A stretch of 64,000 bases of DNA from a virus: IMG/VR virus record IMGVR_UViG_3300045988_050969. One strand, written 5' to 3'. Both the position numbers and the translations under genes were made by a program. The notes under the pieces are model-generated. The model made no database searches, had not been told where the DNA came from, and saw only the letters and a program-made list of their open reading frames with translations. This document shows, piece by piece, positions 1-43,129 of the stretch (positions within the stretch are counted from its first letter, which is position 1; each line of letters opens with the position of its first letter).

Positions 1-1716
1 CTGAGCCCATTGACTTAACTGACTTAAACCAGTCCTACGTATATTTCTAGCAGTAGCTCTATTCTGAGCATTAGCTTCATTAGCCATATTCGTAGCATTA
101 ACCCATTGCTGTCCTAAACTATTCATAGTATTAGCATAATCACCTAAGTACTGATTGTTAACATTACTTTCTTGAGATCTTAAACTAGCTATAGCTCTGT
201 CAGTATTAACAGCTGACTGTAATCTATAAGCTAAATTAGCTCCAGTACTAGTATTAATCTGACTAGCATTATAATTACTAGTAGCTCTATTACGGTTTAA
301 ATCTTCAATAGCAGGACTAATATCATATCTACGTCTACGCATCGTATTACTAATACTAGTAGCATAAGGATTATATACTGCATCAACTGTTTCAGGTCTA
401 CCAGTAAATAGATTAGACATAACAGGAGTTAAAGAAGCTATCCCTGACAAAGCAGAACCCCAATTAAATTTATTATTATCAGGCTCAGGTTTACTATAAG
501 CATTACTTTTAGGTAAAGTAGTAACCTTATCTGCTTGAGAAGTAAGGGCGTCTCCTAAACCTACCATTTCACTATTAGTAGCAGTTAGTAACTCTGGATG
601 TTTTGGTTTCAGCGGATTAACTGTACCATACCAAGTAAACGGTAATTCTGGTTTACCTTCATCAATTAATCCTGTATTCGTAGAAGTAGAAGTTGCTTTA
701 CGTCTACGTGTTGGAGTACTAGTACTTGCTGTAGCTGTATTTGATGCAGTTGGCACATGATACCATTGATTATTACCAGTTCCCCACTGTACACTAGCTC
801 CCCATTTACGATTAGGGTTATAGATAGCATCTACTATTCTATCTCCTAAACCAGGTTTAATCTCATCACCTAAAGCAGCTGCTTGTATCTACTTAGTCTT
901 AGGTTTAATACCTTTACTTTGTTTAACAGATTCCTACATAGCAAATAACTAATCATGAATCATATTATTATTCATTTCATTTAGTTTTGCTGCATTCTCT
1001 GCAAATCTGTCATTATATTTACTTTTCTTCTTTGCCATCATTTTCTCACCAAGTTGTGCAAATGTTTCTTTTCTACCAGGTACTTTAAGCTTATCACTTA
1101 ATACTCTACTACCTTCAGGTAAACTAACTAAATTACTGTCAGTAGGTTTATTATTCTCTGGTACTTTACTTATACTTCCATCGGGAGTCTATATTAATTC
1201 ACCATCATCTACATACGCTAGAGAAGAGGACATTCCTCCATTAGCCATAGTATCTGTATTCATCCCTATCATATCTTCATATGCTTCACTTTGTAGGTAA
1301 TTAGTACCTTGTACAGCGGCTCTATTACCATAAGCATTCTTCTTAATTGCTGCTCTTTTCCTACGAAGTTTTCTATTACTAAATGCTCCAATTAGACCAC
1401 TACCAAGACTACCTTCATCATAATCAGTAAAAGAAGTCATTCTAGCCTCTTCACCGGATCTACCTATTAGCCCTATACCTGCTCCTACTGCAGCACCAAT
1501 TGGACCAGCAACTTGGAAACCAGTAGCTGCACCACTGGCTATGTCACTTACAGATTGTGCAGCAGCTTGCCCTCCTGTAGTAGCGTTAGATTTCTAAAAA
1601 GGAGTAGTTAAAGTATTTAATATATCAGGAGCATTTTCAAGCATGTTATTCCCAATTTCTTTGAATTGAGTTCCAAATGCATATGCTGGTACTTTTGTTT
1701 TCTTTTTACTTTTCAT
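1..1716 (-). CDS. virion/tail-associated protein; its 3' end is cut by the window edge; TAG-recoded
   Basis: ATG at 1716..1714. One frame runs to position 1 (1716 nt = 572 codons) if minus-strand TAG is sense. ORF-track fragment 1189..1440 is in this frame. Confidence 0.55.
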
Positions 1717-1717
1717 A

Positions 1718-4700
1718 TTAAATTAATGAATTTCTGTATGTTGTTGTAATCTATGGTATTTCAAAAGTATGATCTATATCAGAATCTAACTCATAATCGC
1801 ATATCATATACTTACCTCTTAACCTAGCAGGTAACGATAACGCATCTTCATTCTTATCTGCTCTAGGTATAGGGAATCTAAATGTATCTTCTCTATAATC
1901 AGTTATTATATGTTGTTCAGGAGTAATAACATTACCTTCTTCATCAAGTTCTTCTTCAGTATGCTCTCTAATAGCTTCTTGATGTTTGGTACTGAATTTC
2001 ATATAATCTATGATATCGTCCTTAATAGACTCTTGATTACCATCTCTAAACTCTCCTTGTAATCTAACATTATCAAATACTTTAGTATAAGGAGCATTCT
2101 TATTAATAACTATTTCTAATTTAGCTTTTCTATCTAAAGGAGTTAACCCTATTACTCCAGTATCATGTATAGTATGCAATTCATTGTCTTTTATTGCTAC
2201 TACTCTATCAGAAATAGGTAACGACCATTTAGGATTAAATGTATAGAAAGATGTAAATCTACCTAACTACTCATTAAATACTAGTGGTTTATTTAGTACA
2301 TTAAACCATACCTCATTATACTTCTTATCAAATAAAGACATAGCTTTAGCTCTATCTTCTTTAATGTTTTTATTAAAGTAAGATTGTACCTGCTTTTCTT
2401 TAGATAACTAACTTACTTGACCTGTATAAGAACATATTTCGTTCTTATCATAATCGTACCAATAAAGCACATTATCTGAATTAATTATACTCTTGTCATT
2501 CTTAATAGACGAACCATTAGTAGTAGTTACGTAGTCGAATCTACTTAATATACCACCAGTACCTAATACTAGTTGATTTACATTATCGTCAGTAATAAGT
2601 GATCTTTCATTGACAGAAGCTACTCCTACTCCAGTATCTTGGAAATAGAATAGTCTATCTTTGAATACTTTTAGATTGGTTATGTCTCCCCACTGATTAT
2701 CTACATCTAAGTAATCAGCTACTTTGAATTTAGACCACTAATCTATTACTTCATTATTAGTCTTAGCCTATGAAGTTAATATTCTATTAGTATACCTTAC
2801 GTCTTTATCAGCATACATAGAATTAGGTACATACAATTTACCAGTATTCTATACTGAGTAAACAGAATTATATACAAAGTAAGGAAGATCCTGTACGTGT
2901 ATATCTTGCATCTGTGTAGGTTCTAACTATAACCAAGAGTCTGCAAAGTTTGAACTAGTTACGGTTCTATGAATCTAATCACCGTGGAATAAATTCATAT
3001 TAACAGTACTCTCAAATGGTATATAAGATCCTATGTAGTTTTTCATACCATCCCATTCCTTAGCATCAGGCAATTGGAACAACATAGTATTAGGATAATC
3101 TAACAGGCTTAGATAAGTATCCCCTCCGAATACATATTTACTATCGTGTGCAGATATACTTATATATACTGAATTCTATCTAGATGAAAACGTATTACCA
3201 CCATATATGGAATTACCATCACGTTTAATATTAAATACAGGAATAGCATTAGTAGCATCAAAAGGATGAAGTTCAGAATACTTATTAGTAGGTACACTAT
3301 TAAAACCTGTAAATGTATTACTTAATTCAGGCACATGAGCTATGATACATGGACCAGCTGGACCTTGTAATGACTGATTGTCGTTATGAATAAAGTCAGA
3401 CATAGAATAATTAGTATAAGTTCTATTACCAACATTTATTCTTTTAGCTACAACATCAGGAGCTCCATACATATTATAATCTATATTAGGCGGATATTTA
3501 GCGTCTTCTATATATGATATATCTTGAGACTGACCAAAGGTTGGAATAAAATATTTAGCTATAGATGCTCCGCGATATACCTTCTTGCCTCTACTATCCT
3601 AATAAGGAAATCCTACTGCTAATACGTTAAGATCCCATCTTCTACCATAACCTACGTATGGTACAGTATCTTGTTGTAATACTTCTCCGTTTACCTAGGT
3701 AACATAATCTGCTGCAGCGAATATACTACGGCTTACACTATTACCTATAGTATTACCATTAGTGTAGTTGTCTTTAAAATCATCAAATTTGCTATCGTTT
3801 ACTTTTCCACCAACGAATGGGGAATAGTATGAACCAATTCCATCTAAGTACACACTACCTTCAAATAGTCTAGTTGCATCATCTCCTTGTACACATATCT
3901 CTGGAGATACTAGGCGTATATAATCATTTGCCCTCATATTAAGAGAAAAGTTACCAACGTCTTCAGCTGTACCTGTCGATATTGCTAACTGTTCACCAAT
4001 TAGACTACAGAAAAAAGGAGTAGGTCTCATCTCAACGCTGCTATCCAATTCAGTACCTTGTCCTACATACTTATCCTACTCTTGAATTCTATACTCGTAC
4101 ACGTAACTACCTACAGTTTGCATAAGTACAGTTCTATCACGTTCAGTTCTATCACAACGAACTATTTCATAACTTACTGCGCCAACCGGCATTTTCTTTA
4201 CTTTAAATTCTATACCTAAAGCATTACCTATAAGAGTATTGTTCTCATATCTAAATGGAGGCATTTGAGAAGCATGAGGCATTCTAATGTCGCCTATCCA
4301 GAGTACAGGAGAAGCTACAGATTTATCATTATAGAATATTATACCAAATCTATATACTTCATCTCTCTAGTATCCTCTATAATTAGCAGCTATATACGGA
4401 TCAGCGTAATTAGGTATATATGGATTATTCTTCTGCTCTTCAGTAGGCTGTACTATTTCAGGCATTTTATTATCACCCCTGTTTATATACCTAGTATTAT
4501 TTCTAACAGTAGGTACATCCATACTACAGGATTGATCCAATCTAAACTTATCTTGTTTACTACTTAGATTTATATCTGTAGTTACAAAGGAATACTCTAT
4601 ATTAATACCGTAACCACCTAATTCACCATCTTTATTGTATATATATGTATTCTAAGAATTAGATGCATCTTTTGTATACTTTACATTATTAAATGGATTT

Positions 4701-5890
4701 ATACAATCGTGAGTAGTAGGAACACGTTTAATAGCTTCATCATCTGTTATAGACAGACGAATATTATTACTATCTAAACTAGATAACAGCTATACACTTC
4801 CTTCTGAGTTAGCTCTATATGCTCTAGCATCATAGTCATTACCATCTTCATCTTCTGGTATCCAAGTATTCTCTGTTACGTTAGCAGCGAATAATCTATT
4901 TTGCATTTTAGCAAGAGTCTACGCTATAAACTAATAACCAGTCATAGCATTAAACTCATCTATAGATATATCGCTTAATGTAGAACCATAATCTACATAC
5001 TGAATATCTGTTTGACCATCTGGAATATCTATTTCATCTACTATACTAATAACAGGAGTAGAGTTATTCTGTTCATAAAATAGGCGTATTACTCTTAACT
5101 TATTGAAGTCCTAAAGAGATAGCTCAGTAGATAACATTACTGATTTGTTAGATGATTTATTCAAGCCAGTACCTTTATATTCAGAACTACCTTGGCTAGT
5201 TACACTATTTGTTAAGTGAATTAACTCACTCATTGGAGAAGTAACAGTTTCAGTACCATGCACATTAAATAATTGATAACAATATGTTACCATTCCAGCT
5301 TTAAGATTACCTTCAGATAACCAACGGAATTTAAACGGCAATAAACTTACTACTGGAGTTATTTCTAATGAACCAGGATTGATTATATTCCCATTCTCAT
5401 CTATAAGATTAGAATTGTCTATATACTCATTACTCATTATGTTAACAATCTTAATAGGACTGTTTCCATCAGTAAAGTATATCTTTATGTTAGTATCTGA
5501 TTCATAGTTACCTACAATACTTAGTGTGGGATTCTTAGATAAATCTTCACACAACCCTAGAGCTCCTTTACATACTAATTTGATTTGAGGCATATTACTA
5601 TCAAACCCCATTAATCTGTATATCTTATTAATGTTATCAGATGTTTTAGTTATTACTACTGCAATATCATTTATAGTAGTAGTACCTATTATAGTCTCAT
5701 CTTTAGGTATAATAGTATCGTATCTTCTAGGGTTCTCTATACTTTGTAATACTCCTGTAGTTCCTCCATCATTAGTGATAACACGAACATCCTCAGCATA
5801 TCTATACTGAGTATCCGGTATCAAATTTACGTCCTAGTCCATATTAAGACCACCCGTAAATGTATTAACTTGTGCAGTATTACTTATCAT
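1718..5890 (-). CDS. very large (1390 aa) virion/tail protein, TAG-recoded
   Basis: ATG 5890..5888, TAA 1718..1720, 4173 nt = 1391 codons. ORF fragments 5111.., 4076.., 3695.., 3176.. and 1751.. are all in phase and separated only by plus-strand 'cta'. About 19 in-frame TAGs by hand count. Confidence 0.75.
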
Positions 5891-6801
5891 AATCTATTCT
5901 AATTATAAATATTTTGTTCATCTCCACTAGTAGAAAAGAACATACTATGATCATTAATTTCAGGGTATAATTTAGTATAGATATTACTAATAGTTTCTAA
6001 ATCGTCTACAGTGGGCATCATCGCTTCTGCATATGCCTACTTACGATAGAAGTTATAAGAGTTACGTATATCATAGTAATCTCCTTGACTTATCTGACCT
6101 TTTAACTTTTTAGGATACATTAACTTCATAGTAACATACCAGTATATAGCTTCTTTATAAGATTCTAAATCTGGTATCATTGGCATACTATCTTCATCAG
6201 TATATATAGCATAGTAGGATATTTTAACAAATCCTCTAGGCATGCATGTATTAATATAACCAGGTTTAGTAGTATATTGTAATTCATTACTAAACATGGT
6301 GCCATCTCTATGATCTACTACTCCAGGAACAAATTTACCATTTACTGTACCTACTGTCCATTGATTAAGTAATATACTTAATGTTTGCCGTAAGTTAGTG
6401 TCTTCATTTAACTTTTCTAATGCTTCTCTATCAGTATTTAAATTGAACATATTCTTTACTAATGGAAACATTGCAGTATCTGGAATTAACATACAAGGTT
6501 CATTACTGCATTCACGGTCATGGAATACACCAAAACTAGAAGTAGCTTTCCTCATAGGTAACCATCCTCCTCCATTACAGAATGAAAATGCTACTTGACC
6601 TAATTTATATAAATCACAAGGTAAAGCAACCTAATGGCATTCTATTGGTAGTATAGCTACCTTATGCTCATACTATTGTATAGCTCCTATCTTAAGAATG
6701 GCTTCCATGCACCACTCGCGCATATCTGTAATTCGTATATCAGATTCTTGTAATTGCAAATCCGCGATCACTTTAGCAATAACTGTGTTTGAGGATATCA
6801 T
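5887..6801 (-). CDS. hypothetical structural protein (304 aa), TAG-recoded
   Basis: ATG 6801, TGA 5887..5889, 915 nt = 305 codons. Contains fragment 6037..6555 in phase. ATGA-type overlap with the next gene. Confidence 0.65.
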
Positions 6802-6812
6802 TCTATTATTTA

Positions 6813-7274
6813 TCATTTCTCAGGATAATCTCTTAATCGGTTAAAAATCACTTGTGCCAACTCTCTTTTGCAATCTCTACATGCTATAAATTGATATTTA
6901 CCTTTATTAGTTAGTAAGCATCCTTGTTTAGACCAGAAGAATCTGTACTTATAATAATTACTGTGTTCATTAAGTAAGTACACGGGCTTACCAGTTTCTC
7001 TTGTGGCTTTCCAATCCCATCTAAGACTCTTATTATCAAATGATTTAGGTAAATGTTTAATTATACTCAAAGTACCTAACCTACATGGTAACTTTACTTC
7101 TTTACATTCATACATTATTTCGTTTTTAATGTATTTAAAGTAATCAGTAACTATAGCTTTAAAAGTCTTTAAATCTACATCGTACTAAGTATTAGGTTCT
7201 ATGTACTCCTTATAGCTTATATAATAATCGGCAATAGTATAGCACTTTCTCTAATATTTTAATCTCTCTCTCAT
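6813..7274 (-). CDS. hypothetical protein (153 aa), TAG-recoded
   Basis: ATG 7274, TGA 6813..6815, 462 nt. Extends fragment 6813..7115 upstream through two TAGs. ATGA overlap with the upstream gene's stop. Confidence 0.55.
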
Positions 7275-7915
7275 TTATTATTAACTCTATTCTGCGTATC
7301 ATCATGTGCATCATTACTATCATCACTAGGCATAGTAATCATAACAGATAATTCTCTTTGCATTATCATTTGTGTTATTACTGGTATCATTGCAGATGGT
7401 ATAGGAAATTCACTATCTGGATCAAAACAAGCGTTGAGTTCTGTGGGGTCTTCGGCTATTACATCTACGCTGATATACTCTAGCTGATTAGAATCTCCAT
7501 CTACATATATTCTATTGTTTTTAACCCATGCGATGTAATCTTTACATGTAGCCTTTCTATACTTCTATAATTTAGCTTTAGTACGACTACCTATCTAAAT
7601 TATATTACCAAACATATCACGTACATTTATTACTCCAGGTCTATAGTTAAAGTCTATTAACTTAGGGAGTTCTTTATCTCCTACATAAGTAAAGTAACCT
7701 GGTACAGTTTCTTCACGATCTAAGTGGATAGGTTCTATAGTAGTAAGATACATATCATTTATATCTCTGTCTTTATCTATGTCTTGCTTTATTAACATAG
7801 CTCTGTAACCTATAATCCACTTTTCAATTTGTGCTCTACTTAAATGCTCAGACTCTGCAATATTATTATTGCGAGCAATAAGTAGAATATTATCAATTAA
7901 CTAGTTAAGTGTCAT
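7271..7915 (-). CDS. hypothetical structural protein (214 aa), TAG-recoded
   Basis: ATG 7915, TGA 7271..7273, 645 nt. Fragment 7595..7798 is in phase. Confidence 0.6.
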
Positions 7916-8036
7916 ATCTTATTTCTAATAATGTTATAAAGCTTAAAACGCATTTTAAGGCCTTTAGAGACACTTTACGTATTGTAGCTTACAATCCCTT
8001 ACCTTAACTAATAGCGTTTCTTACACGAGCTTAAAA

Positions 8037-8067
8037 CAAAAAAAGGTTGATCTTATTGACCAACCTT
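8037..8067 (-). terminator. rho-independent terminator overlapping the stop of 8053..8616
   Basis: Minus strand reads AAGGTTG-gtcaataagat-CAACCTT followed by TTTTTTTG. Confidence 0.6.
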
Positions 8068-8616
8068 ATCCATTGCATTCTTCATATCCTAAGGAAGCAT
8101 TTCCTTCATAGGTGGTGGCACCATCTAATTAGCTTTCCTTATTATATTTTTTAATTCGTTAACTTCTTTCTATAACTCTATTATCTTATCATTCTCTTTA
8201 GCTGGTTCATTATCTACTCCAAGCTTATCTAACAGAGTCTAACACTTAGCCATTTCTTCATCGCATTTAGCAATGGCTTCTTTTCTTTGTTTGTAAGTAT
8301 TATATTGATTACGTACTATACTTATAATTTCCTATTTATCTGTAGCTATAGTAAGTCCTATAGCATTGTCTGTTATAACTGATTTGTTCTCAGGTATAGT
8401 AAATTTCTTAGTTTCTCCATTACACTAGATAGTTATATCTACTACTTTCTTTCTAGGTTGATTAGGCATAGGAAATTGCCCAGGTGGTAGTGGCTCATCA
8501 TATACTGCACTTACTTGAGTAACAGAACCTTCATTATACTCAGTAGTCTTTTTGAATGTCCCAACCACTTCTATTATATATACTTTATCACCTATATTTA
8601 ATTGATTGAATAACAT
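8053..8616 (-). CDS. hypothetical protein (187 aa), TAG-recoded
   Basis: ATG 8616, TAA 8053..8055, 564 nt. Fragment 8425..8616 continues in phase through TAGs. Confidence 0.55.
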
Positions 8617-8632
8617 AATAAGTTAGTTTTAA

Positions 8633-8651
8633 GGGGCTCATTTAGAGCCCC
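8633..8651 (-). terminator. GC-rich hairpin downstream of 8660..9100
   Basis: GGGGCTC-attta-GAGCCCC, a 7-bp stem. The flanking U-run is weak. Confidence 0.4.
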
Positions 8652-8659
8652 AATTTGTA

Positions 8660-9100
8660 TTAAGCTGCCGGTGTAGCCGGTACTACTATATGATTAATTA
8701 CTTGGAAGATTCCGTCACATTTGTTATAGTATATAAGATATCTGTTACCAGTTGTAATTTCATTATTTGTCATTTGAGCTCCGGAACCATTTAATAGAGC
8801 TTTTGCTCCAGTAGATGTAATAACTGTAGTTGTATTATCAATCTATCTATTAGTAAAGCTAGTAGGATCTAAGAATACTAAATCCGTAGGAGTAGCTGCA
8901 CTAGCAGGAGTAGATGTTACATGCAGTATAAATAAACCTTGGCATGGGAGTTGTCTCCACAGTTTAGGACATATACCATAAGTAACTGAAGTAGTCGTAG
9001 TATCGGTAGTAACATAGTTAGTTCTCAATACTGGAATACCAAAATTATCTACAGTTCTTACTCTACCTCTATTAAAGTAGTTTAAAAAAGGATAAAACAT
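8660..9100 (-). CDS. hypothetical protein (146 aa), one in-frame TAG
   Basis: ATG 9100 is preceded by AGGAGG. TAA 8660..8662, 441 nt. The TAG at 8843 joins the two halves in phase. Confidence 0.5.
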
Positions 9101-9117
9101 AGCTGCCTCCTTTCTTA

Positions 9118-10035: not shown

Positions 10036-10064
10036 AATTGATTTAATTTAAAAATTGATTTTTA

Positions 10065-10700: not shown

Positions 10701-10733
10701 ATTATTATTGATTAATATTATTGAATATATTGA

Positions 10734-11856: not shown

Positions 11857-11871
11857 AGATAGTAGCTGATA

Positions 11872-11925
11872 ATAAAAATCAAATAAGCCCTGACAGATTA
11901 AAAGGGGAGTAAAATCTGAGAGGGC
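11872..11925 (-). terminator. terminator-like hairpin after the RT gene
   Basis: GCCCT..CAGATT / AATCTG..AGGGC imperfect hairpin, followed on the minus strand by TTATTTGATTTTTATT. Confidence 0.5.
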
Positions 11926-11970
11926 TCGAAATTCCGTTTGAGATTATAATTATATAACGATAAGGTTTAT

Positions 11971-30455: not shown

Positions 30456-30552
30456 ATTAAAATATTAAAATTAAATTAGACATTAGCGCTTAGTCTATTC
30501 GCTTACTTTCTACTTTCATTATTTCAGATTTCCACGGCCGTAAGCGCCTTAA

Positions 30553-31221: not shown

Positions 31222-31223
31222 AA

Positions 31224-32686: not shown

Positions 32687-32714
32687 AATACTTTGTATTA
32701 GATTTATCCTGTTA

Positions 32715-33386: not shown

Positions 33387-33480
33387 ACAATATATCTTTG
33401 TTTGGTATATTATATATAACGTACAAAATACAAAAAAGTTACTCGAAAATTAGTTAAATTTTATTTAATTGATGCTCGAC

Positions 33481-34944
33481 TTACTCTAAAATGAGCTCTC
33501 CGCAAGCTCTAGGATCTCGTAACATTATACCCATTTCACCAAGGAAGAATACGGTGTAGCCGTCCTTACCATTAGATCTCAAGGTATCCTTAGACTTAGC
33601 ATAACCAGACGGAGCAACAGCACCACCAGTGTACCAAGTTACGAATTCACGATCCTTACGAACTACTTTAACGATATTAGCTTCACCATCACGACGACCA
33701 AGATCCAAGAAAGTCATACGATATGATTCCTTCGGCTTCAAGGTTACAGGATGCAACTCACGATTATAAGTAGGATCGTCATACAACGGGAAATATTTCA
33801 AAGTCAACTCGATGCCATTAGTCATCTTGTAAGTCTTGAACTAACCGCCAAAAGTCAAGTTATCACCAGAACCAGTTACAAATACTGTATCCATTAAGTT
33901 CATAGTAGCTACTTTTTCTTTCAAGATACGGTCAAATTCACGCATACCCATTTCACCAGTCAAGGCAACAAACTTACGTTCATTAGTACCCAGGCAGTTA
34001 TAAGACAGGTCAAACAAGAAGTCTTCCAACATCTCACCAGTCAAGTGAGTGTAGTAACGTCTATTAGACGGAGCAATCTGTTCCAACAGACCAGCACCGA
34101 TAAATACCGGACGACCGTTAGTACCCTTCAGATTACAAGAACCATCTTTGTTAACATTAGTCTTCATATAAACGAGCATACGTTCACATCTCTTGTACCA
34201 TTCACGTAAAGCTTTCCATTCCTGATAATCAGCCCACAGATAAGAAGTCTTGCCAGTAGCAGGATCTTTCAAAGCTATTGCCATTACTGTAGAATAAGCT
34301 GAACCAGTAATATCATAGTTAACACGAATAGTAGTAAGATAGTTACGCATCTTGAAGTGAGTGTTGTAGTTCAAGATATCACCCTCTTCACTGTATTCTT
34401 CATATGCAGAAGCAAGACGAGATACCTGTTTTCCAGCTTCAAGATATTCAGAAGGAATATAGGAAGTAGGCTGACCATCTGCTACAAAGCAGGTATATAC
34501 CCACAGATTACCATCTTGATAGGGAGCACCTGATACACGTACTTGGAACTCTCTGTTATCAAATTCGAGAATAGCACCAGGACCAAACCAATTATCTTCT
34601 AACCATAACATGATAGGAGTGTTACCCAAACCTGCAGTAGAAGTAGCAGTAATAGCTGCGCCATTCCATTTAGCGTCTCTAATTGTTACGGCTCTGTCAT
34701 TATCAACCATTACAGACCATTCAAAAGAAGGCTGATCAATTGTCATTACATTGCCAAGACCACCTGTCAACATATCCAAAGAAGTGCTATAACCACTATC
34801 TTTTGTACCAAATACGTAAGACAAGATAGTAGACACCTGATACGGATTCTGCTGAGAAGCTACTGAAATCTTAGCAGTATCAATCAAGTCGGAAAACCAC
34901 TTACCTTTGTAGAGTTGAAGGTTATTAAGAATATTGTTATCCAT
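33481..34944 (-). CDS. major capsid protein (487 aa) with a single in-frame TAG
   Basis: ATG 34944, TAA 33481..33483, 1464 nt = 488 codons. Fragments 33841..34944 and 33481..33825 join across the TAG at 33841..33843. Called from its size, its position after the scaffold-like gene and the TerL-portal-...-MCP order. Identity was not checked by search. Confidence 0.7.
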
Positions 34945-34984
34945 AAAAATACTAGTAATTTAATTTTTTAATTATTTAATTTTA

Positions 34985-36208
34985 TTATGCGACACGTAGT
35001 TGTCGTGCGAAAGCATCCCAGATAGATGAGTTGCTATCGTTATTTATCACTTGCCTTTTAGATTTCTTAGATACTCCACTATTTCTAGATAGTGTATTCT
35101 TGAAATTATCAATAGCATCTTTTTTACCTTTCTTCTTAGCTATATCAATTAAGGCATCACCTTTCATTGTAAAGTAAGCAGAAGTGATTAAATTCTTAAG
35201 GCTTTTAGCATAATCTTTCTAGTATCTAGTAATGCCATCTGCATCCGGTTTGAATATGTATTCCAACAGGGCTTTCTTATCCTTTTCAGGAATATCAATT
35301 CCATAGATACTATCCATGCCTTTTATTTCTGTGACAACGTTATTAAAGAAGTCACGTTGTTGCTTTTCAGCCTCTCTAGCCTATTTTTCCTGGTTGGCTA
35401 ATAGCTCTTCTTTACGTGCAACTTTGATGTCTCTAAGAGCCTCTAAAGCGTCTGTAGCCTCGTCCTCTAATAGGCCTGCTTCTTCATATTTGTTAAGTTT
35501 CTTTTCAATTTGTTTTGAAGTAAAGCCTTTTTCTTTTAAAAATTCTTTAATGACCAGTTTTTGATTTACTTCATCATCTTCTATCTCGATATTATCAATA
35601 TCAAGATCAGCATCGATACTAAAATAATCTTTAAGCTTACCTCCATTATGAACAAATTTATCAAGCTTTTCTACTTCCTCGCTAGCATACTGAGGAGTAG
35701 AATTTTCTTCTATTACCTCTTTAAAGTAATCAATTAGATCTTCAGCAGTTCTAGGCTTTTCGTCATCTTCTACGTCATCCCATCCTAATTGTGTTGCTAA
35801 CGAATCGAAGAATCCTACAATTATTTCTTCATCACTTGTATCATTTCCACCATCGGTATTATCACTATTAGATTCTTGTTCCCTATCCTCATCCTCATCT
35901 TCATTAGTTTCTGTATTTTCAGATTTGGATTTCTTTTGAGTTTTAGTAGTTTTTTTAGGTTTAGATGTAACATCTTCATCTTCATCTTCCTCTTCAGGAT
36001 CTTCGTCTTCAAGCTCATCGTCTTCTACTTTAGTTGTTTTCTTAGGTTTAGGATTACGTAACGCCTCTAACTCTTCATCAGTTAGTTCTTCTGCTGCTGC
36101 ATCAATTACGTCAGTATCGTTGTCTTCTGTTTTAGTCTTAGTACCTACATGAGGGTTTAAGGTATCTAATATAGCCTCAAAACCATTCAATGTGTTCTTT
36201 GCTTCCAT
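34985..36208 (-). CDS. acidic scaffold-like protein (407 aa), TAG-recoded
   Basis: ATG 36208, TAA 34985..34987, 1224 nt. TAGs at 35381 and near 35220. Long D/E-rich low-complexity region. Lies immediately upstream of the MCP. Confidence 0.55.
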
Positions 36209-36226
36209 AATTATATATAATTAGAT

Positions 36227-36436
36227 TTATTTTTTTCTTCCTTTATGTTTCCATTTTTTCGCATTCTAAGCGAAGATAGCTCGCTTACGAGTCAATGGAT
36301 TCTTACTATGAGTAAGTTCTTCTGTACTTTTACCTGTTCTCTTCTTCAAAGCATTAAACTTACCTCTATTCTTCTTCTTTATATGTATCCCTCCATCTTT
36401 ATAACTTGGTATTGGATACTGCGGTATTATTGTCAT
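36227..36436 (-). CDS. small basic protein (69 aa), one in-frame TAG
   Basis: ATG 36436, TAA 36227..36229, 210 nt. Sequence ...GGIHIKKKNRGKF...RKRAIFA[TAG]NAKKWKHKGRKK. Confidence 0.45.
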
Positions 36437-36523
36437 AACTGTTAAACAATCTCTTGATTCTTGTTTTTATTTACCTTATTTACTAAAGGTCTAGTTAGAA
36501 AATCTTTATATAATACACTTGGT

Positions 36524-37537
36524 TTAGGGAGCTGATTCTATAACCTATCTAAACTATTTAGTATTAGTAGGATAAGTACTAGGAGTTAATGTATTCATCA
36601 AGTACTCATCAAACTAATTCATAATACTTTTCTTTTCTGTAGGCTTACGCAAATATTCATATACACTTTTAGCTCTGTCTTTATCTGGAAACATATGCTC
36701 CACTTCAGAGAATGGTCTGTACTTACTTGGTTTACCTAACTATCTTAAGTATGCATTATTTGGTACTCCTCCGGGATAAGCTTTCTCATCTACATAATGA
36801 CCTATTTCATGTCTTATTAATCCTTTAGGATAGTCTTCTGCAGTTCTAATATTATCTGTAGACAGATTTATAGTTTTACCTTCAGATGGATTAATGTTAG
36901 CATAATCTTTTTTATTTGATACAAAATTAGGTTCAGGCAAGTTAACATAACTATTTATATCTTCATATTCTTTAGTTAAGTCATCGTATACTTTATTATA
37001 TTCAGTACCGTACTTTCTATCAATAGTCTATGCCCTTCTTCTAGCTTCTGGAGTATTTAATAATTCATATGCTCTATTACGCTGATCAGAATATTCTTCT
37101 AATACTCGTCTTCTATTGTTGTTTTCTAAATCTCTTCTAAGATCATTAGCATCAACCTATCTTTGAAAACTTCTAGTAACAGTAGGAATCTCCCTTGAAA
37201 TTTTGCTTTTAAGAGATTTATATATATTAGGTATAAAAGGAATCATAGCTGAAGCAGCCAAACCAGCACCTAACCAATCTCTATTCTTTACTGCATTATA
37301 AGTATCTCTAGCTGATATAGCATCACCAATAGGAGTCATATTAGCAGCATCTTCAAGACTAAATACAGGCTTTAAACCTTCTTCTAAAGGTCTACCACTA
37401 CTACTTCTACCTGTAGCTTGATAAAATCTCTCCTTCTCAGGATCACCTGTCTGACCACCATCTGCAAATGCTTCTACCTTCCAATCCCAATAGCCTTTAC
37501 CGGGATTATTCTCCCGGTAAGACTTTAGGTTCTGCAT
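36524..37537 (-). CDS. HExxH-motif protein (337 aa), TAG-recoded
   Basis: ATG 37537, TAA 36524..36526, 1014 nt. Fragments 37157.. and 36740.. are in phase. Contains the motif GLIRHEIGHYVD. Confidence 0.55.
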
Positions 37538-37556
37538 TCTCTATTTAAATGCTTGT

Positions 37557-37814
37557 TTATCCATATATAAAATCTGTAAAATTTCTTTTACCTAAGAATT
37601 GTTGTCCATTCATGTAAATCTCAGCTTCTTGAGAAGATTCAGATATGCAAATAGTAATTATATCTTTTTTAAATATTCTAGTATCCAAAGGAGTACCTAT
37701 AAAGAACATTATATACTATTGTACTTCATCTTCATCCTACTCTACGAATCCGTTATCTAATAGTCTCTATATAAACAATTCAATTCTTTCTTTAACAGTA
37801 GGTTCTCGTTCCAT
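37557..37814 (-). CDS. small hypothetical protein (85 aa), three in-frame TAGs
   Basis: ATG 37814, TAA 37557..37559, 258 nt. Confidence 0.4.
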
Positions 37815-37894
37815 AACTATTATTTCTTTCCGCCTTTACCCTTCTTAGAGCTACCGGATTTCTTACCTCCACATGCCATAATTAATTCCTCCTA

Positions 37895-38359
37895 TTATTT
37901 AATTGTTTTAAGATATTGTCTCCAATTTTTCTTATTAGCCTTATAAGTCTTCTTTCTATCCTTAATCTTATATTTATCAAGATCTTCAGGCTTACGTGTT
38001 TTCAGATAATCAAAGTTATCATCATTAGCATAAGCTTCCATTTCATAAGGAATAGTATAGTAAGCACTAGATGCAGGATAGATAATCGGATTACCTTTAA
38101 TCCATTCCCATGCATAAGACCAATAATAACTTATCCATCTCTTTTTATCTTTAGCTTCATAGAGATGAATATTTTCATGATTCCAAGTAGTAGGCTTAAT
38201 CTGAGATTCAGGTTTTCTACTTAACAAGTAACCACACCAGCTCATTGCAGAATAACCACTAAATGGATAATGGTCCATATGCTTATACTCTACTTTGTCT
38301 GCTTCTACTTTAGTGAATAACTATTTGATTATCCACCACGTTTCTTTAAACCAATTCAT
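37895..38359 (-). CDS. HExxH-motif protein (154 aa), one in-frame TAG
   Basis: ATG 38359, 465 nt, ends TAA. Contains the motif WNHENIHLYE. Confidence 0.55.
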
Positions 38360-38361
38360 AA

Positions 38362-40872
38362 TTATTTCTCTCCTGTTACTTTATTCTTAATCGCAGTTTT
38401 GGCTTTTAATCTTTCTCTTTCCATTGCTGCCTTGTCTTTAGCTGCTTGCAACTTCATTTCATGATCCATTCTTTCTCTTTCAAGCTAATTCTTCTTATCT
38501 TCTATCTCTTTTTTCATTTTCTGCTCTCTAATCTTAGCATTGAATTCAAATTGTTTAGAAGCTTCATCAGATGCTTGCTTACGTTCAGCTAAAGCTTGCT
38601 GGGCTATTTCCATGACATCAGGTACACCATTCTCATTCTAATCCATATTTTCAGCACCTCTATAAGCATTAAGTTGAGCTACAGTAATCTTAGTAGCATT
38701 ATCTTGGTCTATTTTATATTTCTCAAGATCCATCTCTGCCTCTTTAATCATAAGCTCTTCTTCCTTAACCTCATTTTGCATTTGAATAGCTTGCTGTTCA
38801 CGTTCTGCTTGAGCTTGCTCCATAGCTTGTTGTTGCTCCATACGTTTCTACTCAATCTCCTCTAATCTAGACTTAATCATACTAATATTATCCATAGTAA
38901 TGATTTCGGCTATATCGAGTAAGCTAGCTCCATTCTGCATAGCAGGTTGCATAAGTTGTTTAAGAGCTTCTACTTGTTGTTGATTCTTAGTAGTATCATC
39001 AATGAATATATCCATGTCTTCATAGAAGAACTCATCAGAAAGAGTTATAAATGCTCTAGTAGCATCATCAAGGATATAATGTAAGCATCTTTTATTATCT
39101 TTCCATGCTACTTTAGAAGTATCTAATAACATAGTAAGAGCTTCTTTCTTTACTTGATTATGAACCCAGAACCAAGGTTCAGTAATATGAGCTGACTATA
39201 CTATAGATCTCTCTACATTACCTACTAATTCATTAGATGCAACAGAACCTTCACGCTATTTACTTACTCCTGATATTTCTGATACCATAGCTTCAATCTT
39301 ATCCATAAGATTAATATACTAATCAATAGTATTAGCCATAGTAAGATCCAATGAAGTAAATTGATTGAACTGAGATGGCTTACCACCTTCTCTACCGGGT
39401 ATATCCCATCCTTCTTCGTATGGATTAATAAATACTACACCAAGAGCACCTAAGTAATGCATCCATTTATTCACATCTATGCCCATAGATTTAGGTATCT
39501 AAGTAACGTCAATAACAGGTACTTTACCTTTATCTCTAGCCATAGCGAGTTCTAGTCTGTACCATAGTACAATATACATATACTGCAATGGTTTCATCAT
39601 ACTTACCAAAGATCTAGGAGCACTATTAGTATTATTGTATACAACTCCTGTATAAGGTAATTTTTGAGAATTAAGATTATCAGCAGATATGTGTTGGTAT
39701 TCTAGTGGTTGTATACCTATATATAAGTCTTCTCCAACTCTATAACCTTCCCATACCTCTATAATCCAAGTCCATTCAACGTTCAACTCCATACCAGTAA
39801 CCTTGTAGGACTCGTCTACTTGTAACTCATCAATTTCTCCAGTATTAGGATCTTGATAAGTAACGAAACCTATTTTCTTAAATGACTTCCAACAGCAATG
39901 CCAAACATTAATGTTATCAGACCCTTCAAACGGATTTGAAGTTAACCCATTAATAGTTCTTGTTTTTAAGTGAGGATAATCCATAGATGTCTTACGTACT
40001 TCAGGATTAATGCCTCCCCTGCTTACATCATCTACCATTTCAAGCAATTCATTTAATTGCTTTTCTGTCATTTTATCATAGAATCTATCATAAATTTCTG
40101 TAGCTGACATAATCATCTTACGGCAACACCAATCAGAGTCATGAATGAATTCTAAGTCTGCGCTCTAGTCATAACTAAAGTAAAGAGGATTAACTCGTTC
40201 TAAATAAGGATTACCATTTATAATACCAATATAGTATATTTCTTCTCCAGCTATCAACGCGTCCTTCCAACCTTTATAAAACTCATGAACTACATTAAGT
40301 TTATTCTTAAGATAATTAAGGCTATGATATGCTGTTACTTCTGCTATATCCTTATAATCCTTACTTAGATATTTCTATATCTTTTCTGGAGGTAATATTT
40401 CACCATTCTGTAATGCTTGTTGATATCTCTAAGCCTCTTCAGGGCCTAACTGACTCATAATAGTAGCCATTACATAATCTTCAAGCATTTGTTTAGCAGT
40501 ATCCTGTACTTCACTAGTAGCTATATCACTAGTACGTACTACTCTAAAATTAAATGGTCTTTTTGTTTCTTCACCTAATAATAAGTCTATTTTAGGCTTA
40601 ATTATATTATAATCCTATGCTGTGGCAGGGAATCCATCTTTCTATTTAAAAGGATTTGTAACATACAAAAGATCTTTCTCATTATAGATACTATTGTATA
40701 AATCATAGTAAGTCTACATCTCCTCATATCTAGTACGCCCATTTCTACCGCCTCCACTATTAAAGCCTGACTTACCTATTATATAGTCAACACAGGCTTC
40801 TTTCCAATCTTTAGTCTTTTTAGACATAGGAAGTTTTTGCACAGGAAATGAACCAATATTTCTACTTATCAT
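38362..40872 (-). CDS. portal protein (836 aa) with a C-terminal coiled-coil extension, TAG-recoded
   Basis: ATG 40872, TAA 38362..38364, 2511 nt = 837 codons. Fragments 39499.., 38848.. and 38638.. are all in phase. Lies directly after TerL. More than 10 in-frame TAGs. Confidence 0.75.
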
Positions 40873-40878
40873 ATTCTG

Positions 40879-42924
40879 TTAATTAAATGTATATACATCG
40901 TCATCGACTTGACTGAAGCTATCGTCATAACTCCAGTTACCATAAGTAAAGAGAGGACCGTCGAATAATAATCTCTCTCTGTTAGTTTTTTTCTTCTCTT
41001 TTACAACTACATTATATAGCTGTTCACGATAAATCATTACCTGCATCAACGCCATCACACGGTCAAAGTTACCTATATCATTATAACCTATAAGCTCTTC
41101 TAATAGCGGTTCTGATAATATATCGTGTAGGTTTTTATGCCCTGGAGATTTCTCATCATTTAACCAATCTTTGATGAGTCCTTCACCCCATTGTTTAATC
41201 TGTTTATTCATGTGACAACCTTTCTTTCGTTGCACCTTAGAATTGCTGATGATATCAGATATAATATCTGGCTAATCAGCCAAAAGATAGTCACAATGCT
41301 TAGCAGTAAAGTATGGAAACAAACCTTTACGCTCATTTTCATACATAATTCTGCCATTATAATAAACTGCGAGTTTACGTAAGTTTTCATAATATTCCTC
41401 TGCTGTAGCAGGCCTTCCTGTATACTCAGCTACTATTATATCATAGTAGTTTTCAAAGTTCTAAAATCTCTTATATACAAAAGTAGATCCTAATGAGTTA
41501 GTACCCGATTGATCATGATCATAAGGGTCTACTCCAAGTATATATAAACCGATAGGAGCATCCTTTACAGGGTGTTCCCATATAACTATAGAACCAGTAG
41601 GATCATCCTCTTTAGATAAAGGATAATGAGTAATATCACCTTGTTTTTTTATTACCCATTTAAGACTACCATCTGATTCCCATACTAAATCACCTATCTA
41701 TTTGTGATTTGATAATTTCTTATTCGTACGTATTTTAGCTAGTTGTTCTTGTAATTCTTTTTTAGGGAATATATTACCATTAAATTCTAGACATGCTTCA
41801 GCTGGAGTAATACAACGTTCCGCTACATAACGGTCTACTGCTACAGAACTAGTAGCATTCTCTATTACGTCTTTACGCTGTTGTAATACGTATTCTAAAG
41901 CTTTATGTCTTATAGTATTACCGTCATTATCCATATACATACGATTTCCCTACTCATCTCGTATGTCCATGTTTGTATACTAAGGTATGAAGAATCCACA
42001 TTTAGTATCTCCTACATTCTCATCCCATATGTTATCAAGCTCTAAACAATTATAACCTTTAGGCTTATAAAACATATCTTTAAGAGTAAAGAAGTTAGAA
42101 TCTTCATCACCACCAGTACCAAATGCAATCATAGTAGCAAATGCTCTACCATCATTCTCTACAGAAGGTCTAGCGATTTGCCATGCTGCGCCTAATTCTT
42201 TAAATGAACCAGCTTCTTCAAATAGAATAAGGTTAGCTTTCTTACCACGTACTACATCAGGATTGTCTTTCAAAGTAACCCCAATAATTTCAGATTTATA
42301 ACCTACTTCTATTTGATTACCATACTCATCCTTCATACTTACTGCAGCGCGTTTACGTAATTGAGTATTTACAGCTCTTTTCTTACCCCACGCAGTATGT
42401 TCATCTATAAAGTCTAAGTAGTCCCAAGCTTTAGTAAGAATACCATCATCTGTTAAATATTGCTTATTTGAAGCATATACATATGATTTAGAGTTAGGTA
42501 TAAGATAGTAATTACGACATAACATAGCAGCTCCTTTATAGGAGTAACCTTTACGTCTAGACTTAAGTACACATAAATGTTTACCCTATTTATGAGCTTC
42601 ATTTACTGCATTAAAATAGTAATAATCATAGTCCCAAAAATCAGGAAATGTAACCAACTACTCTGATACTACTTCCCCATTTACTATACTATTGACAGTA
42701 CGGTTAATAGGACAATAATTTAAATAAAAATAGTTATACCCACTAATGAAATCACCATCATCAGCTGTATAACCATTAATACAACGTTCCTTTTCCTCTG
42801 TCCAGAAACGCATATATTCTGCCGTACCTTTGGGGTGTGGACAGTATTGACCTGTTCTAATATATGTAAGAGCAGGCTATCTAAACTTATTACTATTTAC
42901 TATCTTCTTATTAAAGTCGACCAT
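40879..42924 (-). CDS. terL: terminase large subunit (681 aa), TAG-recoded
   Basis: ATG 42924, TAA 40879..40881, 2046 nt = 682 codons. Fragments 41980.., 41698.. and 40879.. are in phase. ATPase Walker-B-like LILFEEAGSF, followed by a nuclease-like C-terminal half. About 8 in-frame TAGs. Confidence 0.85.
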
Positions 42925-43129
42925 TTCTCTTCTTTGTTCTAGTGAGACTGATTAAAGCTTCTTTTATAGTCTTTTCTGTAATCTTACTGTACACAGTACT
43001 GTTGGCGATATCGAATTGACAAATAATACCATTACCGGCAGCCTTCCATATCTCCGGAGTAATTTGGTATCCATCAAGCTCATCCTGCATAGCAAGGAAA
43101 GTTACATTCTTACCTCTAAGTTTATCCAT
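42911..43129 (-). CDS. small protein upstream of TerL (72 aa)
   Basis: Intact ORF. Overlaps the TerL start by 14 nt. First gene of the late block. Confidence 0.5.
   Translation of the reverse strand: MDKLRGKNVTFLAMQDELDGYQITPEIWKAAGNGIICQFDIANSTVYSKITEKTIKEALISLTRTKKRNGRL

What the first reader, a model, noticed from the sequence alone, without database searches (positions are those of the whole stretch)
1..43129. The whole late/structural module is written with TAG as a sense codon, most likely Gln
Minus-strand ORF fragments are separated only by plus-strand 'cta' (TAG) and join exactly in frame:
- MCP 33481..34944 is 1464 nt with one TAG.
- TerL 40879..42924 is 2046 nt.
- Portal 38362..40872 is 2511 nt.
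- 1718..5890 is 4173 nt with about 19 TAGs.
- 21420..24986 is 3567 nt.
- 25385..28669 is 3285 nt.

Every merged gene I checked ends in TAA or TGA, never TAG. Two TAGs sit where well-known motifs carry a conserved Gln. One is the DGR RT motif IGNYLS[TAG], the I/LGxxxSQ hallmark, at 12433..12435. The other is the S74 chaperone-domain motif GTIA[TAG]N, an IAQ-type motif, at 21660..21662. TAG-to-Gln recoding is already described for some crAss-like and other gut phages, so the phenomenon is not new. It is still essential for reading this window correctly.
Basis: partly seen in the sequence, partly recalled or inferred. Interest (0 to 1): 0.65.

Follow-up and report, generated by a model that had tools for sequence, protein, structure and literature searches.

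The report
Gut phage reads TAG as glutamine
This is a crAss-like gut phage whose late genes for building the virus particle and lysing the host use the stop codon TAG for glutamine, read by a phage-encoded suppressor tRNA; this is real and essential for annotation, but already well described for this phage group.

Summary
The 33 minus-strand genes in 1..42924 carry 155 in-frame TAGs and no in-frame TAA or TGA. Reading TAG as sense raises coding density in 1..43129 from 48% to 93%.

The window is a Crassvirales phage (Suoliviridae, Uncouvirinae). Its 33-43.5 kb stretch is about 96% identical in nucleotides to Birpovirus hiberniae cr115_1, whose RefSeq record already annotates the full-length genes.

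Glutamine is strongly supported:
- In 80 related contigs, the window's TAGs align to TAG (33%), CAA (22%) and CAG (17.5%). Every other codon is at 3% or less.
- The non-recoded relative cr10_1 has Gln at 17 of 22 TerL, portal and MCP sites (P = 3e-18).
- The two motif TAGs align to genuine Gln codons in standard-code homologs.

A tRNA(CUA) at 43407..43479 sits just upstream of TerL, as in 67 of 80 relatives. It most resembles Bacteroidales tRNA-Gln.

Refinements: five late genes contain no TAG, three upstream genes each contain one, and no gene clearly ends in TAG.

The phenomenon is already known (Yutin 2021, Borges 2021 preprint, Peters 2022). The one possibly new point is that the suppressor-tRNA slot differs among near-identical relatives, and in some of them the tRNA is split by an intron.

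The parts
1..42924 (-). Late (structural, DGR and lysis) module: 33 co-oriented genes that must be read with TAG as sense. It holds 155 in-frame TAGs, which is 28.5% of all Gln-type codons (TAG+CAA+CAG).
   Evidence: Twenty-eight of the 33 genes contain at least one TAG. The first gene (1..1716) runs off the window edge.
40879..42924 (-). Terminase large subunit, 681 aa, 8 in-frame TAGs.
   Evidence: 99.4% identical to the TerL annotated in NC_055898. It aligns full-length to the TAG-free cr10_1 TerL, which has Q at 6 of the 8 TAG columns.
38362..40872 (-). Portal protein, 836 aa, 13 in-frame TAGs.
   Evidence: cr10_1 has Q at 10 of 13 columns. Sites 539 and 559 are Q in the cultured standard-code phages crAss001 and DAC17.
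33481..34944 (-). Major capsid protein, 487 aa, 1 in-frame TAG (codon 368).
   Evidence: Pfam Crass_capsid E = 8.5e-218, aligned over residues 3-486 across the TAG. The column is CAG or CAA in all 57 aligned relatives and is Q in Flavobacterium phage Fpv1.
11971..12993 (-). DGR reverse transcriptase, 340 aa, 8 TAGs out of 10 Gln-type codons. The hallmark-motif TAG is at 12433..12435.
   Evidence: Pfam RVT_1. PDB 8ub7 bRT E = 3.9e-43, with IGNYLS[TAG] aligned to IGSLTSQ.
21420..24986 (-). Tail-fibre-like protein, 1188 aa, 18 TAGs, with a C-terminal Peptidase_S74 chaperone domain. The motif TAG is at 21660..21662.
   Evidence: Pfam PF13884 E = 5.6e-8. IGTIAQ is nearly invariant in homologs. The Q is encoded as CAA in two independent contigs.
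1718..5890 (-). Largest late gene, 1390 aa, 19 TAGs. The longest TAG-free fragment is 241 codons.
25385..28669 (-). Structural protein with a collagen-like stretch, 1094 aa, 7 TAGs.
   Evidence: 42% identical over 782 aa to a DAC17 protein.
18545..18991 (-). Endolysin, 148 aa, 3 TAGs out of 5 Gln-type codons.
   Evidence: phrog_894 endolysin E = 3.5e-18. Weak Peptidase_M15_3 match.
43407..43479 (-). Suppressor tRNA with anticodon CUA, the inferred decoder of UAG. It has a tRNA-Gln-like body (U1, G10, A73) and a bulged T stem, and CCA is not fully encoded.
   Evidence: ARAGORN. Rfam tRNA 37.7 bits. Same position in 67 of 80 relatives. Its D-arm motif hits tRNA-Gln in 93 of 118 cellular tRNAs. 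The best cellular match is tRNA-Gln(CUG) at 77%.
42913..43129 (-). Small TAG-free gene (72 aa) overlapping the TerL start.
   Evidence: Yutin et al. propose that the small gene next to terL encodes TerS. This was not tested here.
46755..47123 (-). Gene upstream of the tRNA with one in-frame TAG at codon 26. It is a possible winged-helix regulator.
   Evidence: TAG is kept in 35 of 69 relatives; the others have AAG, GAC, GAT or CAA. The MarR_2 match is weak, E = 0.0077, below threshold.
45900..46175 (-). Small gene with a TAG five codons before its TAA, so its reading is ambiguous (stop or sense).
   Evidence: Relatives have TAG, AAA, AAC or AAG at this column.
48217..48495 (-). Small gene with a TAG seven codons before its TAA, so its reading is ambiguous.

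Best explanation
The window is part of a Suoliviridae (crAss-like 'delta' group) phage that uses a code-15-type dialect, in which UAG is translated as glutamine.

Shown: TAG is a sense codon in the late module. It occupies positions where standard-code relatives encode Gln. A tRNA with anticodon CUA lies immediately upstream of the TerS/TerL operon.

Inferred:
- This tRNA derives from tRNA-Gln, analogous to E. coli supE, where Gln CUG becomes CUA. The host GlnRS charges it, and it outcompetes host release factor 1 at UAG.
- The early and replication genes on the plus strand contain no TAG, and the upstream minus-strand block contains only three. Those genes can therefore be made in the naive host.
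- Full-length virion, DGR and endolysin proteins need the suppressor. This gates late and lytic functions in time, as in the model of Borges et al.
- No gene in the window clearly ends in TAG, so suppression does not cause harmful read-through of the phage's own genes.
For: TAG is sense:
- 155 TAG versus 0 TAA/TGA in frame, and coding density rises from 48% to 93%.
- MCP matches Pfam Crass_capsid end to end across its TAG.
- TerL and portal align full-length to TAG-free homologs.

TAG is Gln:
- Opposite the window's TAGs, 80 relatives have TAG 742, CAA 492 and CAG 388 of 2221 cells; no other codon exceeds 3%. Tyr, Trp and Leu codons, which are one mutation away from TAG, are almost absent.
- Gln has the highest likelihood (-2643, versus -5628 for Glu, the next best). 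It is the modal residue at 25 of 42 sites.
- cr10_1, which has no in-frame TAG, has Q at 17 of 22 sites, P = 3e-18.
- The cultured standard-code phages crAss001, DAC17 and Fpv1 have Q at several of these sites.
- The RT motif Q is confirmed and the S74 motif Q, encoded as CAA.

The tRNA.

TAG distribution: late module 1.13% of codons, upstream minus-strand block 3 TAGs in 1800 codons, plus-strand genes 0 in 2840. The endolysin uses TAG for 3 of 5 Gln-type codons.

Literature: TAG to Gln in delta-group crAss-like phages with suppressor tRNAs, mostly in late genes (PMC7886860). Metaproteomic proof of Gln at TAG in two crAss-like phages (PMC9523058). The lysis-timing model (10.1101/2021.08.26.457843).
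Against: - There is no protein or RNA data for this phage. Expression, charging and timing of the tRNA are inferred.
- The tRNA is atypical: U1-G72, a bulged T stem and a low Rfam score of 37.7 bits. Its CUA anticodon departs from the GlnRS identity set at position 36.
- The D-arm scan was chosen from the suppressor itself, and it also hit 23 tRNA-His.
- About 40% of aligned non-TAG codons are not Gln. This is as expected for variable columns but is not proof at each site.
- The split between early and late is not clean. Three genes upstream of the tRNA carry a TAG, and five late genes carry none.
- No terminator was detected between the tRNA and the late operon.
- No release factor, GlnRS or other code-switch protein was seen in the window.
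Confidence: 0.92

Rival explanations
1. TAG is a sense codon but encodes an amino acid other than Gln. Candidates are pyrrolysine (the ARAGORN label), or Tyr, Leu, Ser, Lys, Glu or Trp as with classical amber suppressors.
For: ARAGORN labels the tRNA 'Pyl' from its anticodon alone. Lys and Glu are the next most common partners of TAG columns. Two relatives carry a 91-nt tRNA(CUA) with a long variable arm, the shape of Leu, Ser and Tyr tRNAs.
Against: Gln outscores every other residue by about 3000 log-likelihood units. Tyr, Trp and Leu partners are at or below 0.04% even though they are one mutation from TAG. CAA, which is two mutations from TAG, is the commonest non-TAG partner. The tRNA body matches Bacteroidales tRNA-Gln. 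In the relatives with the long-arm tRNA, cr10_1 has Q at 55-62% of their TAG sites, as for the other relatives. Metaproteomics in related phages found Gln.
Confidence: 0.04
2. TAG remains a stop codon. The fragments would then be pseudogenes, split genes or assembly errors, and the apparent in-frame joining would be incidental.
For: Under code 11 the region still yields many ORFs of 80 aa or more, covering 48%.
Against: Only TAG interrupts the frames, never TAA or TGA. The same architecture is found in all 80 related contigs, with 16-27 TAGs in TerL plus portal in each. Homology runs across every TAG. TAG positions are partly conserved and exchange with CAA and CAG. A dedicated tRNA(CUA) is present.
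Confidence: 0.01
3. TAG is read as Gln constitutively, with no role in timing. Recoding would then be neutral drift after the phage captured a suppressor in an AT-rich genome, or an anti-host weapon that causes read-through of host genes.
For: Three genes upstream of the tRNA already carry TAG. TAG use varies widely among late genes, from 0 of 20 to 8 of 10 Gln-type codons. Yutin et al. suggest host read-through as an anti-defence strategy. Borges et al. link recoding to low GC content and loss of TAG stops. The window is 33% GC.
Against: The contrast is sharp: 155 TAGs in late genes against 0 in 2840 codons of plus-strand genes. The tRNA sits exactly at the module boundary in 67 of 80 relatives. 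The endolysin is recoded.
Confidence: 0.3

Closest known systems
Birpovirus hiberniae, uncultured phage cr115_1 (NC_055898; Crassvirales, Suoliviridae, Uncouvirinae)
   Same: About 96% nucleotide identity over window 33-43.5 kb (80% of that stretch aligned). Same gene order. TerL is 99.4%, portal 96.8% and MCP 99.6% identical. The same TAG positions are used (7 of 8 in TerL, 10 of 13 in portal). RefSeq already annotates full-length MCP (1464 nt) and TerL (2046 nt).
   Different: cr115_1 has an HNH endonuclease gene between portal and TerL that the window lacks. Its tRNA slot holds a different tRNA(CUA), split by a 228-nt insert in the anticodon loop, and RefSeq does not annotate it. The window's MCP TAG is CAG in cr115_1.
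Code-15 (TAG to Gln) crAss-like phages of the delta, beta and zeta groups (Yutin et al. 2021; Borges et al. 2021 preprint; Peters et al. 2022)
   Same: In-frame TAG concentrated in late, structural and lysis genes. A suppressor tRNA(CUA) is present. Replication genes are compatible with the standard code. Gln was inferred from homologs and confirmed by metaproteomics in two such phages.
   Different: Nothing essential. This window is one more genome of that kind, and no proteomics exists for it.
E. coli supE (glnV44) amber suppressor, tRNA-Gln with anticodon CUA (textbook knowledge, not tested here)
   Same: A tRNA-Gln body with anticodon CUA inserts Gln at UAG in competition with RF1. The window's tRNA shares the acceptor, the D arm and the 'UUCUnG' anticodon loop with cellular tRNA-Gln(CUG).
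   Different: The window's tRNA is phage-encoded. It is only 77% identical to the nearest cellular tRNA-Gln, has U1-G72 and a bulged T stem, and serves about 1.1% of late codons rather than rare nonsense alleles.
TGA to Trp recoded phages (Agate, Jade, Lak; code 4)
   Same: The same logic: a stop codon becomes sense in late genes and is read by a phage suppressor tRNA.
   Different: A different codon and amino acid. Some of those phages also encode RF1 and TrpRS, and no such proteins were seen in this window.

Membership tests
TAG-to-Gln (code-15-type) recoded phage | In-frame TAG, and only TAG, inside conserved phage genes whose homology continues across it | tested here: met
TAG-to-Gln (code-15-type) recoded phage | Homologs that use the standard code carry Gln at the TAG columns | tested here: met
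   (17 of 22 in cr10_1, P = 3e-18). Searches cover the two motif sites.
TAG-to-Gln (code-15-type) recoded phage | A phage-encoded suppressor tRNA with anticodon CUA | tested here: met
   The tRNA lies at 43407..43479 on the minus strand. It is conserved in position in 67 of 80 relatives.
TAG-to-Gln (code-15-type) recoded phage | The suppressor tRNA is charged with glutamine | not testable with these tools
   Only indirect evidence: a tRNA-Gln-like body. An aminoacylation assay or peptide mass spectrometry is needed.
TAG-to-Gln (code-15-type) recoded phage | Recoding is concentrated in late, structural and lysis genes, and early genes are compatible with the standard code | tested here: met
   155 TAGs in late genes, 3 in the upstream minus-strand block, 0 in plus-strand genes. 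Timing itself was not tested.
Crassvirales / Suoliviridae / Uncouvirinae | crAss-type major capsid protein, TerL and portal, with high nucleotide identity to a classified member | tested here: met
   Crass_capsid E = 8.5e-218. About 96% nucleotide identity to Birpovirus hiberniae.
Pyrrolysine decoding (the ARAGORN label 'tRNA-Pyl') | Special tRNA-Pyl architecture plus pylS/pylBCD genes, with Pyl-specific TAG sites | tested here: not met
   The tRNA has an ordinary tRNA-Gln-like cloverleaf. No Pyl-synthesis family appeared among the roughly 40 window proteins scanned with Pfam or PHROGs; the window was not scanned exhaustively. TAG columns are Gln.
Diversity-generating retroelement (context of the RT motif) | RT with the I/LGxxxSQ motif, plus a TR/VR pair whose mismatches are all at TR adenines | tested here: met
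   (motif, with Q encoded by TAG). TR 13133..13224, VR 13371..13462, and 22 of 22 mismatches at A on the coding strand. An accessory Avd gene was not examined.

The most novel reading that the evidence does not exclude
The decoder, rather than the recoding, may be the unusual part. The suppressor-tRNA slot between the upstream gene block and TerS/TerL behaves like a rapidly exchanged cassette.

Among contigs with about 98% identical TerL and 88-98% identical flanks, the slot holds at least six different tRNA(CUA) versions:
- The window has an intact 73-nt type, otherwise seen only in a relative with 76% TerL identity.
- Others carry different intact types.
- Some carry the same tRNA split between anticodon bases 35 and 36, by a 228-nt insert that is a weak group-I-intron match, or by an insert of about 1 kb.

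This could reflect an arms race over the tRNA, for example host anticodon nucleases or tRNA-targeting defences. It could also add a layer of control in which splicing of the suppressor tRNA, together with a TAG-containing putative regulator upstream (46755..47123), sets when the code switches.
Probability: 0.2. Interest if true: 0.6.

Novelty: already known. Interest (0 to 1): 0.22.

Why it matters
In practice, this window cannot be annotated with code 11. More than half of the late module would appear non-coding or fragmented. TerL, portal, the tail fibres, the DGR reverse transcriptase and the endolysin would all be missed or truncated. In biology, it is one more instance of a phage that changes the meaning of a stop codon inside a standard-code host. 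That already has metagenomic, comparative and proteomic support for this very phage group, and the nearest named relative is annotated accordingly in RefSeq. The result therefore adds a clean, quantified case but no new principle. The only lead that might go further is the variability of the suppressor-tRNA slot among near-identical relatives, including intron-split forms.

Tried and rejected
I used DNA-level codon alignments instead.
- Pfam found no family for the merged TerL or portal at E <= 0.01. Their identity rests on RefSeq-annotated homologs and a precomputed PF16510 hit on relatives.
- A PDB sequence search with the S74 C-terminal region found nothing. The homolog search for it returned only fairly close relatives, many predicted with Q at TAG, which would be circular. 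I therefore fetched DNA for two homologs at 47-51% identity and confirmed CAA.
- The single-sequence MFE fold of the tRNA is not a cloverleaf and is not better than shuffled sequences. ARAGORN and Rfam do give the cloverleaf.
- The terminator scan between the tRNA and the late operon found none. A GC hairpin at about 43148..43175 lacks a proper T run. The sigma-70 promoter scan is not informative for Bacteroidota or for the phage RNA polymerase.
- Rfam found nothing in the 1-kb tRNA insert of L009, and only a sub-threshold group I intron match in L003.
- The RT homolog in cr130_1 has Gly at the motif column in my alignment. I treat this as a different RT subtype or a misalignment and rely on the 8ub7 alignment instead.
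- Rejected readings: pyrrolysine, other amino acids, pseudogenes and assembly artefacts (see the rival explanations).
Full report
OBSERVATION. Every coordinate in the finding checks out. When only TAA and TGA are treated as stops, the minus strand of 1..42951 tiles into 33 consecutive genes. The quoted genes are:
- MCP 33481..34944, 1464 nt, 1 TAG.
- TerL 40879..42924, 2046 nt, 8 TAG.
- Portal 38362..40872, 2511 nt, 13 TAG.
- 1718..5890, 4173 nt, 19 TAG.
- 21420..24986, 3567 nt, 18 TAG.
- 25385..28669, 3285 nt, 7 TAG.

The coding frame of these 33 genes holds 155 TAG, 0 TAA and 0 TGA in 13,675 codons. The other two frames of the same strand carry TAA or TGA at 9.3% of codons, so chance cannot produce such frames (about 10^-577). 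Greedy ORF coverage of 1..43129 is 48% with code 11 and 93% with TAG as sense. Making TGA or TAA sense instead gives 55% and 68%. In 43130..64000 the change is only 63% to 67%. Of the 33 genes, 29 end in TAA and 3 in TGA; one runs off the window edge.

WHAT THE WINDOW IS. The merged MCP matches Pfam Crass_capsid end to end (E = 8.5e-218, residues 3-486), straight across its TAG. Window 33-43.5 kb is about 96% identical in nucleotides to NC_055898, uncultured phage cr115_1, with 80% of that stretch aligned. That phage is Birpovirus hiberniae (Crassvirales, Suoliviridae, Uncouvirinae). Its RefSeq record already annotates a 1464-nt major head protein, a 2523-nt portal and a 2046-nt TerL. The curators therefore already read through TAG.

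WHICH AMINO ACID. I worked at the codon level to avoid circularity, because many database proteins of this clade were predicted with Q at TAG.

(a) Close relatives. Eighty IMG/VR contigs with TerL 72-98% identical were fetched. Opposite the window's TAG codons they have TAG 33%, CAA 22% and CAG 17.5%, and no other codon exceeds 3%.
- CAA is two mutations from TAG yet is the commonest partner.
- Tyr, Trp and Leu codons are one mutation away and are almost absent.
- In the reverse direction, relatives have TAG opposite 9.8% of the window's Gln codons, and opposite at most 1.1% of the codons for any other residue.
- With a substitution matrix estimated from the same alignments, Gln has log-likelihood -2643 and the next best residue, Glu, -5628. 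Gln is the modal non-TAG residue at 25 of 42 sites.

(b) Relatives without recoding. These have no in-frame TAG in the same genes: cr10_1 and cr1_1 (Boorivirinae), Azobacteroides phage ProJPt-Bp1, crAss001, cr106_1, cr116_1, DAC17 and Flavobacterium phage Fpv1.
- They have Q in 66 of 157 aligned cells; the next residue is K with 22.
- cr10_1 alone has Q at 17 of the 22 TerL, portal and MCP sites, against a Q background of 5.2% (P = 3e-18).
- Portal sites 539 and 559 and MCP site 368 are Q even in cultured standard-code phages.

(c) The two motif claims.
- The RT aligns to the Bordetella phage DGR RT (PDB 8ub7, E = 3.9e-43), with IGNYLS[TAG] opposite IGSLTSQ.
- In the S74 chaperone domain, IGTIAQ is nearly invariant. 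Two independent homologs at 47-51% identity encode that Q as CAA.
- The plus-strand triplets at 12433..12435 and 21660..21662 are both CTA.

THE DECODER. ARAGORN and Rfam both find a tRNA with anticodon CUA at 43407..43479 on the minus strand. It lies about 280 nt upstream of the first late gene (42913..43129), which overlaps the TerL start. ARAGORN finds a tRNA(CUA) at the same place in 67 of the 80 relatives.

ARAGORN's 'Pyl' label comes only from the anticodon. A genome-wide scan with the tRNA's D-arm motif hit 118 cellular tRNAs. Of these, 93 are tRNA-Gln(UUG or CUG), many from Prevotella, Bacteroidaceae and Muribaculaceae, and 23 are tRNA-His.

The best overall cellular match is a tRNA-Gln(CUG) at 77% identity. 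It shares the same length, the acceptor, the D arm, A73 and the UUCUnG anticodon loop. The window's tRNA lacks the G-1/C73 signature of tRNA-His (base -1 is C). It is atypical in three ways: U1-G72, a one-base bulge in the T stem, and CCA not fully encoded. Charging by host GlnRS, as with E. coli supE, is an inference from established knowledge and was not tested here.

EXTENT AND TEXTURE OF THE RECODING. TAG is 1.13% of late codons and 28.5% of Gln-type codons. Use is uneven.
- Five late genes have no TAG: 9118..10035 (0 of 20 Gln-type codons, P = 0.001), 10065..10700, 29481..30455, 31934..32686, and the GIY-YIG homing endonuclease 32715..33386.
- MCP has 1 of 12.
- The DGR target gene 13256..15817 has 2 of 27.
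- The RT has 8 of 10 (P = 0.001).
- The endolysin (phrog_894, E = 3.5e-18) has 3 of 5.

The boundary is not perfectly sharp. In the co-oriented upstream block (43.7-49.7 kb; it includes ThyX and a dATP/dGTP diphosphohydrolase), three of 13 genes carry one TAG each.
- 46755..47123 has a TAG at codon 26. It is kept in 35 of 69 relatives and replaced by sense codons in the others. The protein has a weak MarR-like winged-helix match.
- 45900..46175 and 48217..48495 each have a TAG 5-7 codons before a TAA.
- The plus-strand genes at 50-62.4 kb have no TAG in 2840 codons and all end in TAA or TGA.

The whole window is therefore compatible with code 15. Only the plus-strand part and most of the upstream block are also compatible with code 11.

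MECHANISM. Shown: TAG is sense, it corresponds to Gln, and a tRNA(CUA) sits at the module boundary. Inferred: the tRNA is transcribed with or after the upstream block, charged with Gln, and competes with RF1. Late, DGR and lysis proteins would then be completed only once it accumulates. This is the timing model of Borges et al., which fits the recoded endolysin here. A constitutive or anti-host role (Yutin et al.) is not excluded. I found no terminator between the tRNA and the late operon and no release factor or synthetase gene in the window.

COMPARISON AND NOVELTY.
- Yutin et al. 2021 (PMC7886860) describe TAG to Gln in delta-group (now Suoliviridae) crAss-like phages, with suppressor tRNAs, mostly in late genes.
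- Peters et al. 2022 (PMC9523058) showed Gln at TAG by metaproteomics in two crAss-like phages.
- Borges et al. (10.1101/2021.08.26.457843) give the evolutionary and lysis-timing framework.
- The nearest genome is already annotated this way.

The finding is therefore correct, necessary for annotation, and already known.

A SIDE LEAD. All 80 relatives are recoded, and cr10_1 has Gln at 48-63% of their TAG sites whatever tRNA class they carry. The tRNA slot itself, however, is strikingly variable. Its flanks match the closest relatives at 88-98%, and the content between them differs.
- The window's tRNA type recurs only in L051, whose TerL is 76% identical.
- L006 has another intact type.
- L008 and L009 have that same type interrupted after CUCU by about 1 kb.
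- cr115_1 (L003) has a third type interrupted by 228 nt. Removing the insert restores a perfect 73-nt cloverleaf with anticodon CUA. The insert gives a sub-threshold group I intron match (21.3 bits, E = 0.0028).
- L002, L005 and L040 carry aberrant-looking tRNA(CUA) genes.

A full-text search found no paper that links suppressor tRNAs, group I introns and phages in this way. This lead concerns relatives, not the window, and I only partly followed it.

Noticed in passing
window 51210..57245, + strand: A dense cluster of non-coding RNAs, all above Rfam gathering scores. It holds RAGATH-6 (51210..51360), RAGATH-7 (51417..51640), three Hatchet ribozymes (52604..52715, 52814..52937, 55119..55266), tRNA-Leu(UAA) (53461..53545), RAGATH-9 (56687..56867) and a permuted tmRNA (56899..57154). 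ARAGORN also calls the tmRNA, with tag peptide GNTSYVMNYSRIAA.
   Followed up: no
L003 (= NC_055898 cr115_1) 9433..9733; L008 and L009 tRNA slots; window 43400..43485 for comparison: In the closest relatives the suppressor tRNA(CUA) gene is split in the anticodon loop (CUCU | insert | AAC) by 228 nt or by about 1 kb. Removing the 228-nt insert gives a perfect cloverleaf. The insert is a weak group I intron match. RefSeq does not annotate this tRNA. The window has an intact tRNA of a different type in the same slot.
   Followed up: partly
tRNA slot upstream of TerL in L002..L081 (for example L024 8977..9067, L041 9131..9221): Relatives carry many unrelated-looking tRNA(CUA) classes in the same position. 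Two are 91-nt genes with a long variable arm, and some have aberrant T loops. The Gln signal at TAG sites is the same for all classes.
   Followed up: partly
window 46755..47123, - strand: A well-conserved small protein (median 90% identity in relatives) with a weak MarR-type winged-helix match. It has an in-frame TAG at codon 26 in the window and in half of the relatives. It lies upstream of the suppressor tRNA, so it could be a regulator whose synthesis depends on suppression.
   Followed up: partly
window 11971..15817, - strand: An apparently complete diversity-generating retroelement: RT at 11971..12993, template repeat at 13133..13224, and variable repeat at 13371..13462 near the C-terminus of the 853-aa gene 13256..15817. 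All 22 mismatches are at template adenines on the coding strand. The RT uses TAG for 8 of its 10 Gln-type codons, and the target gene for only 2 of 27.
   Followed up: partly
window 9118..10035, 29481..30455 and 32715..33386, - strand: These late-module genes avoid TAG completely despite having many Gln codons: 0 of 20 for the Gly/Cys-rich membrane-like protein at 9118..10035 (phrog_16490), and 0 of 11 for 29481..30455. The GIY-YIG/NUMOD3 homing endonuclease next to MCP also has none. This may reflect high expression or recent acquisition.
   Followed up: partly
P0025 and P0109 (portal homologs); L001 10231..10791: Some portal homologs are about 1190 aa long and contain intein or homing-endonuclease domains (PF05203, PF05204, PF14528). 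cr115_1 has an HNH endonuclease gene between portal and TerL that is absent from the window.
   Followed up: no
window 43148..43175, - strand: A GC-rich hairpin (GGGGUUCGUUGUGAAACGCGCCCC) lies just upstream of the first late gene. It has no proper T run, so the terminator scan does not call it. It might be a processing or attenuation signal between the tRNA and the late operon.
   Followed up: no
L196 (genome-contig hit): One tRNA(CUA), 76% identical to the window's, sits on a contig filed under a bacterial genome assembly. It may be a binned phage contig or a prophage.
   Followed up: no
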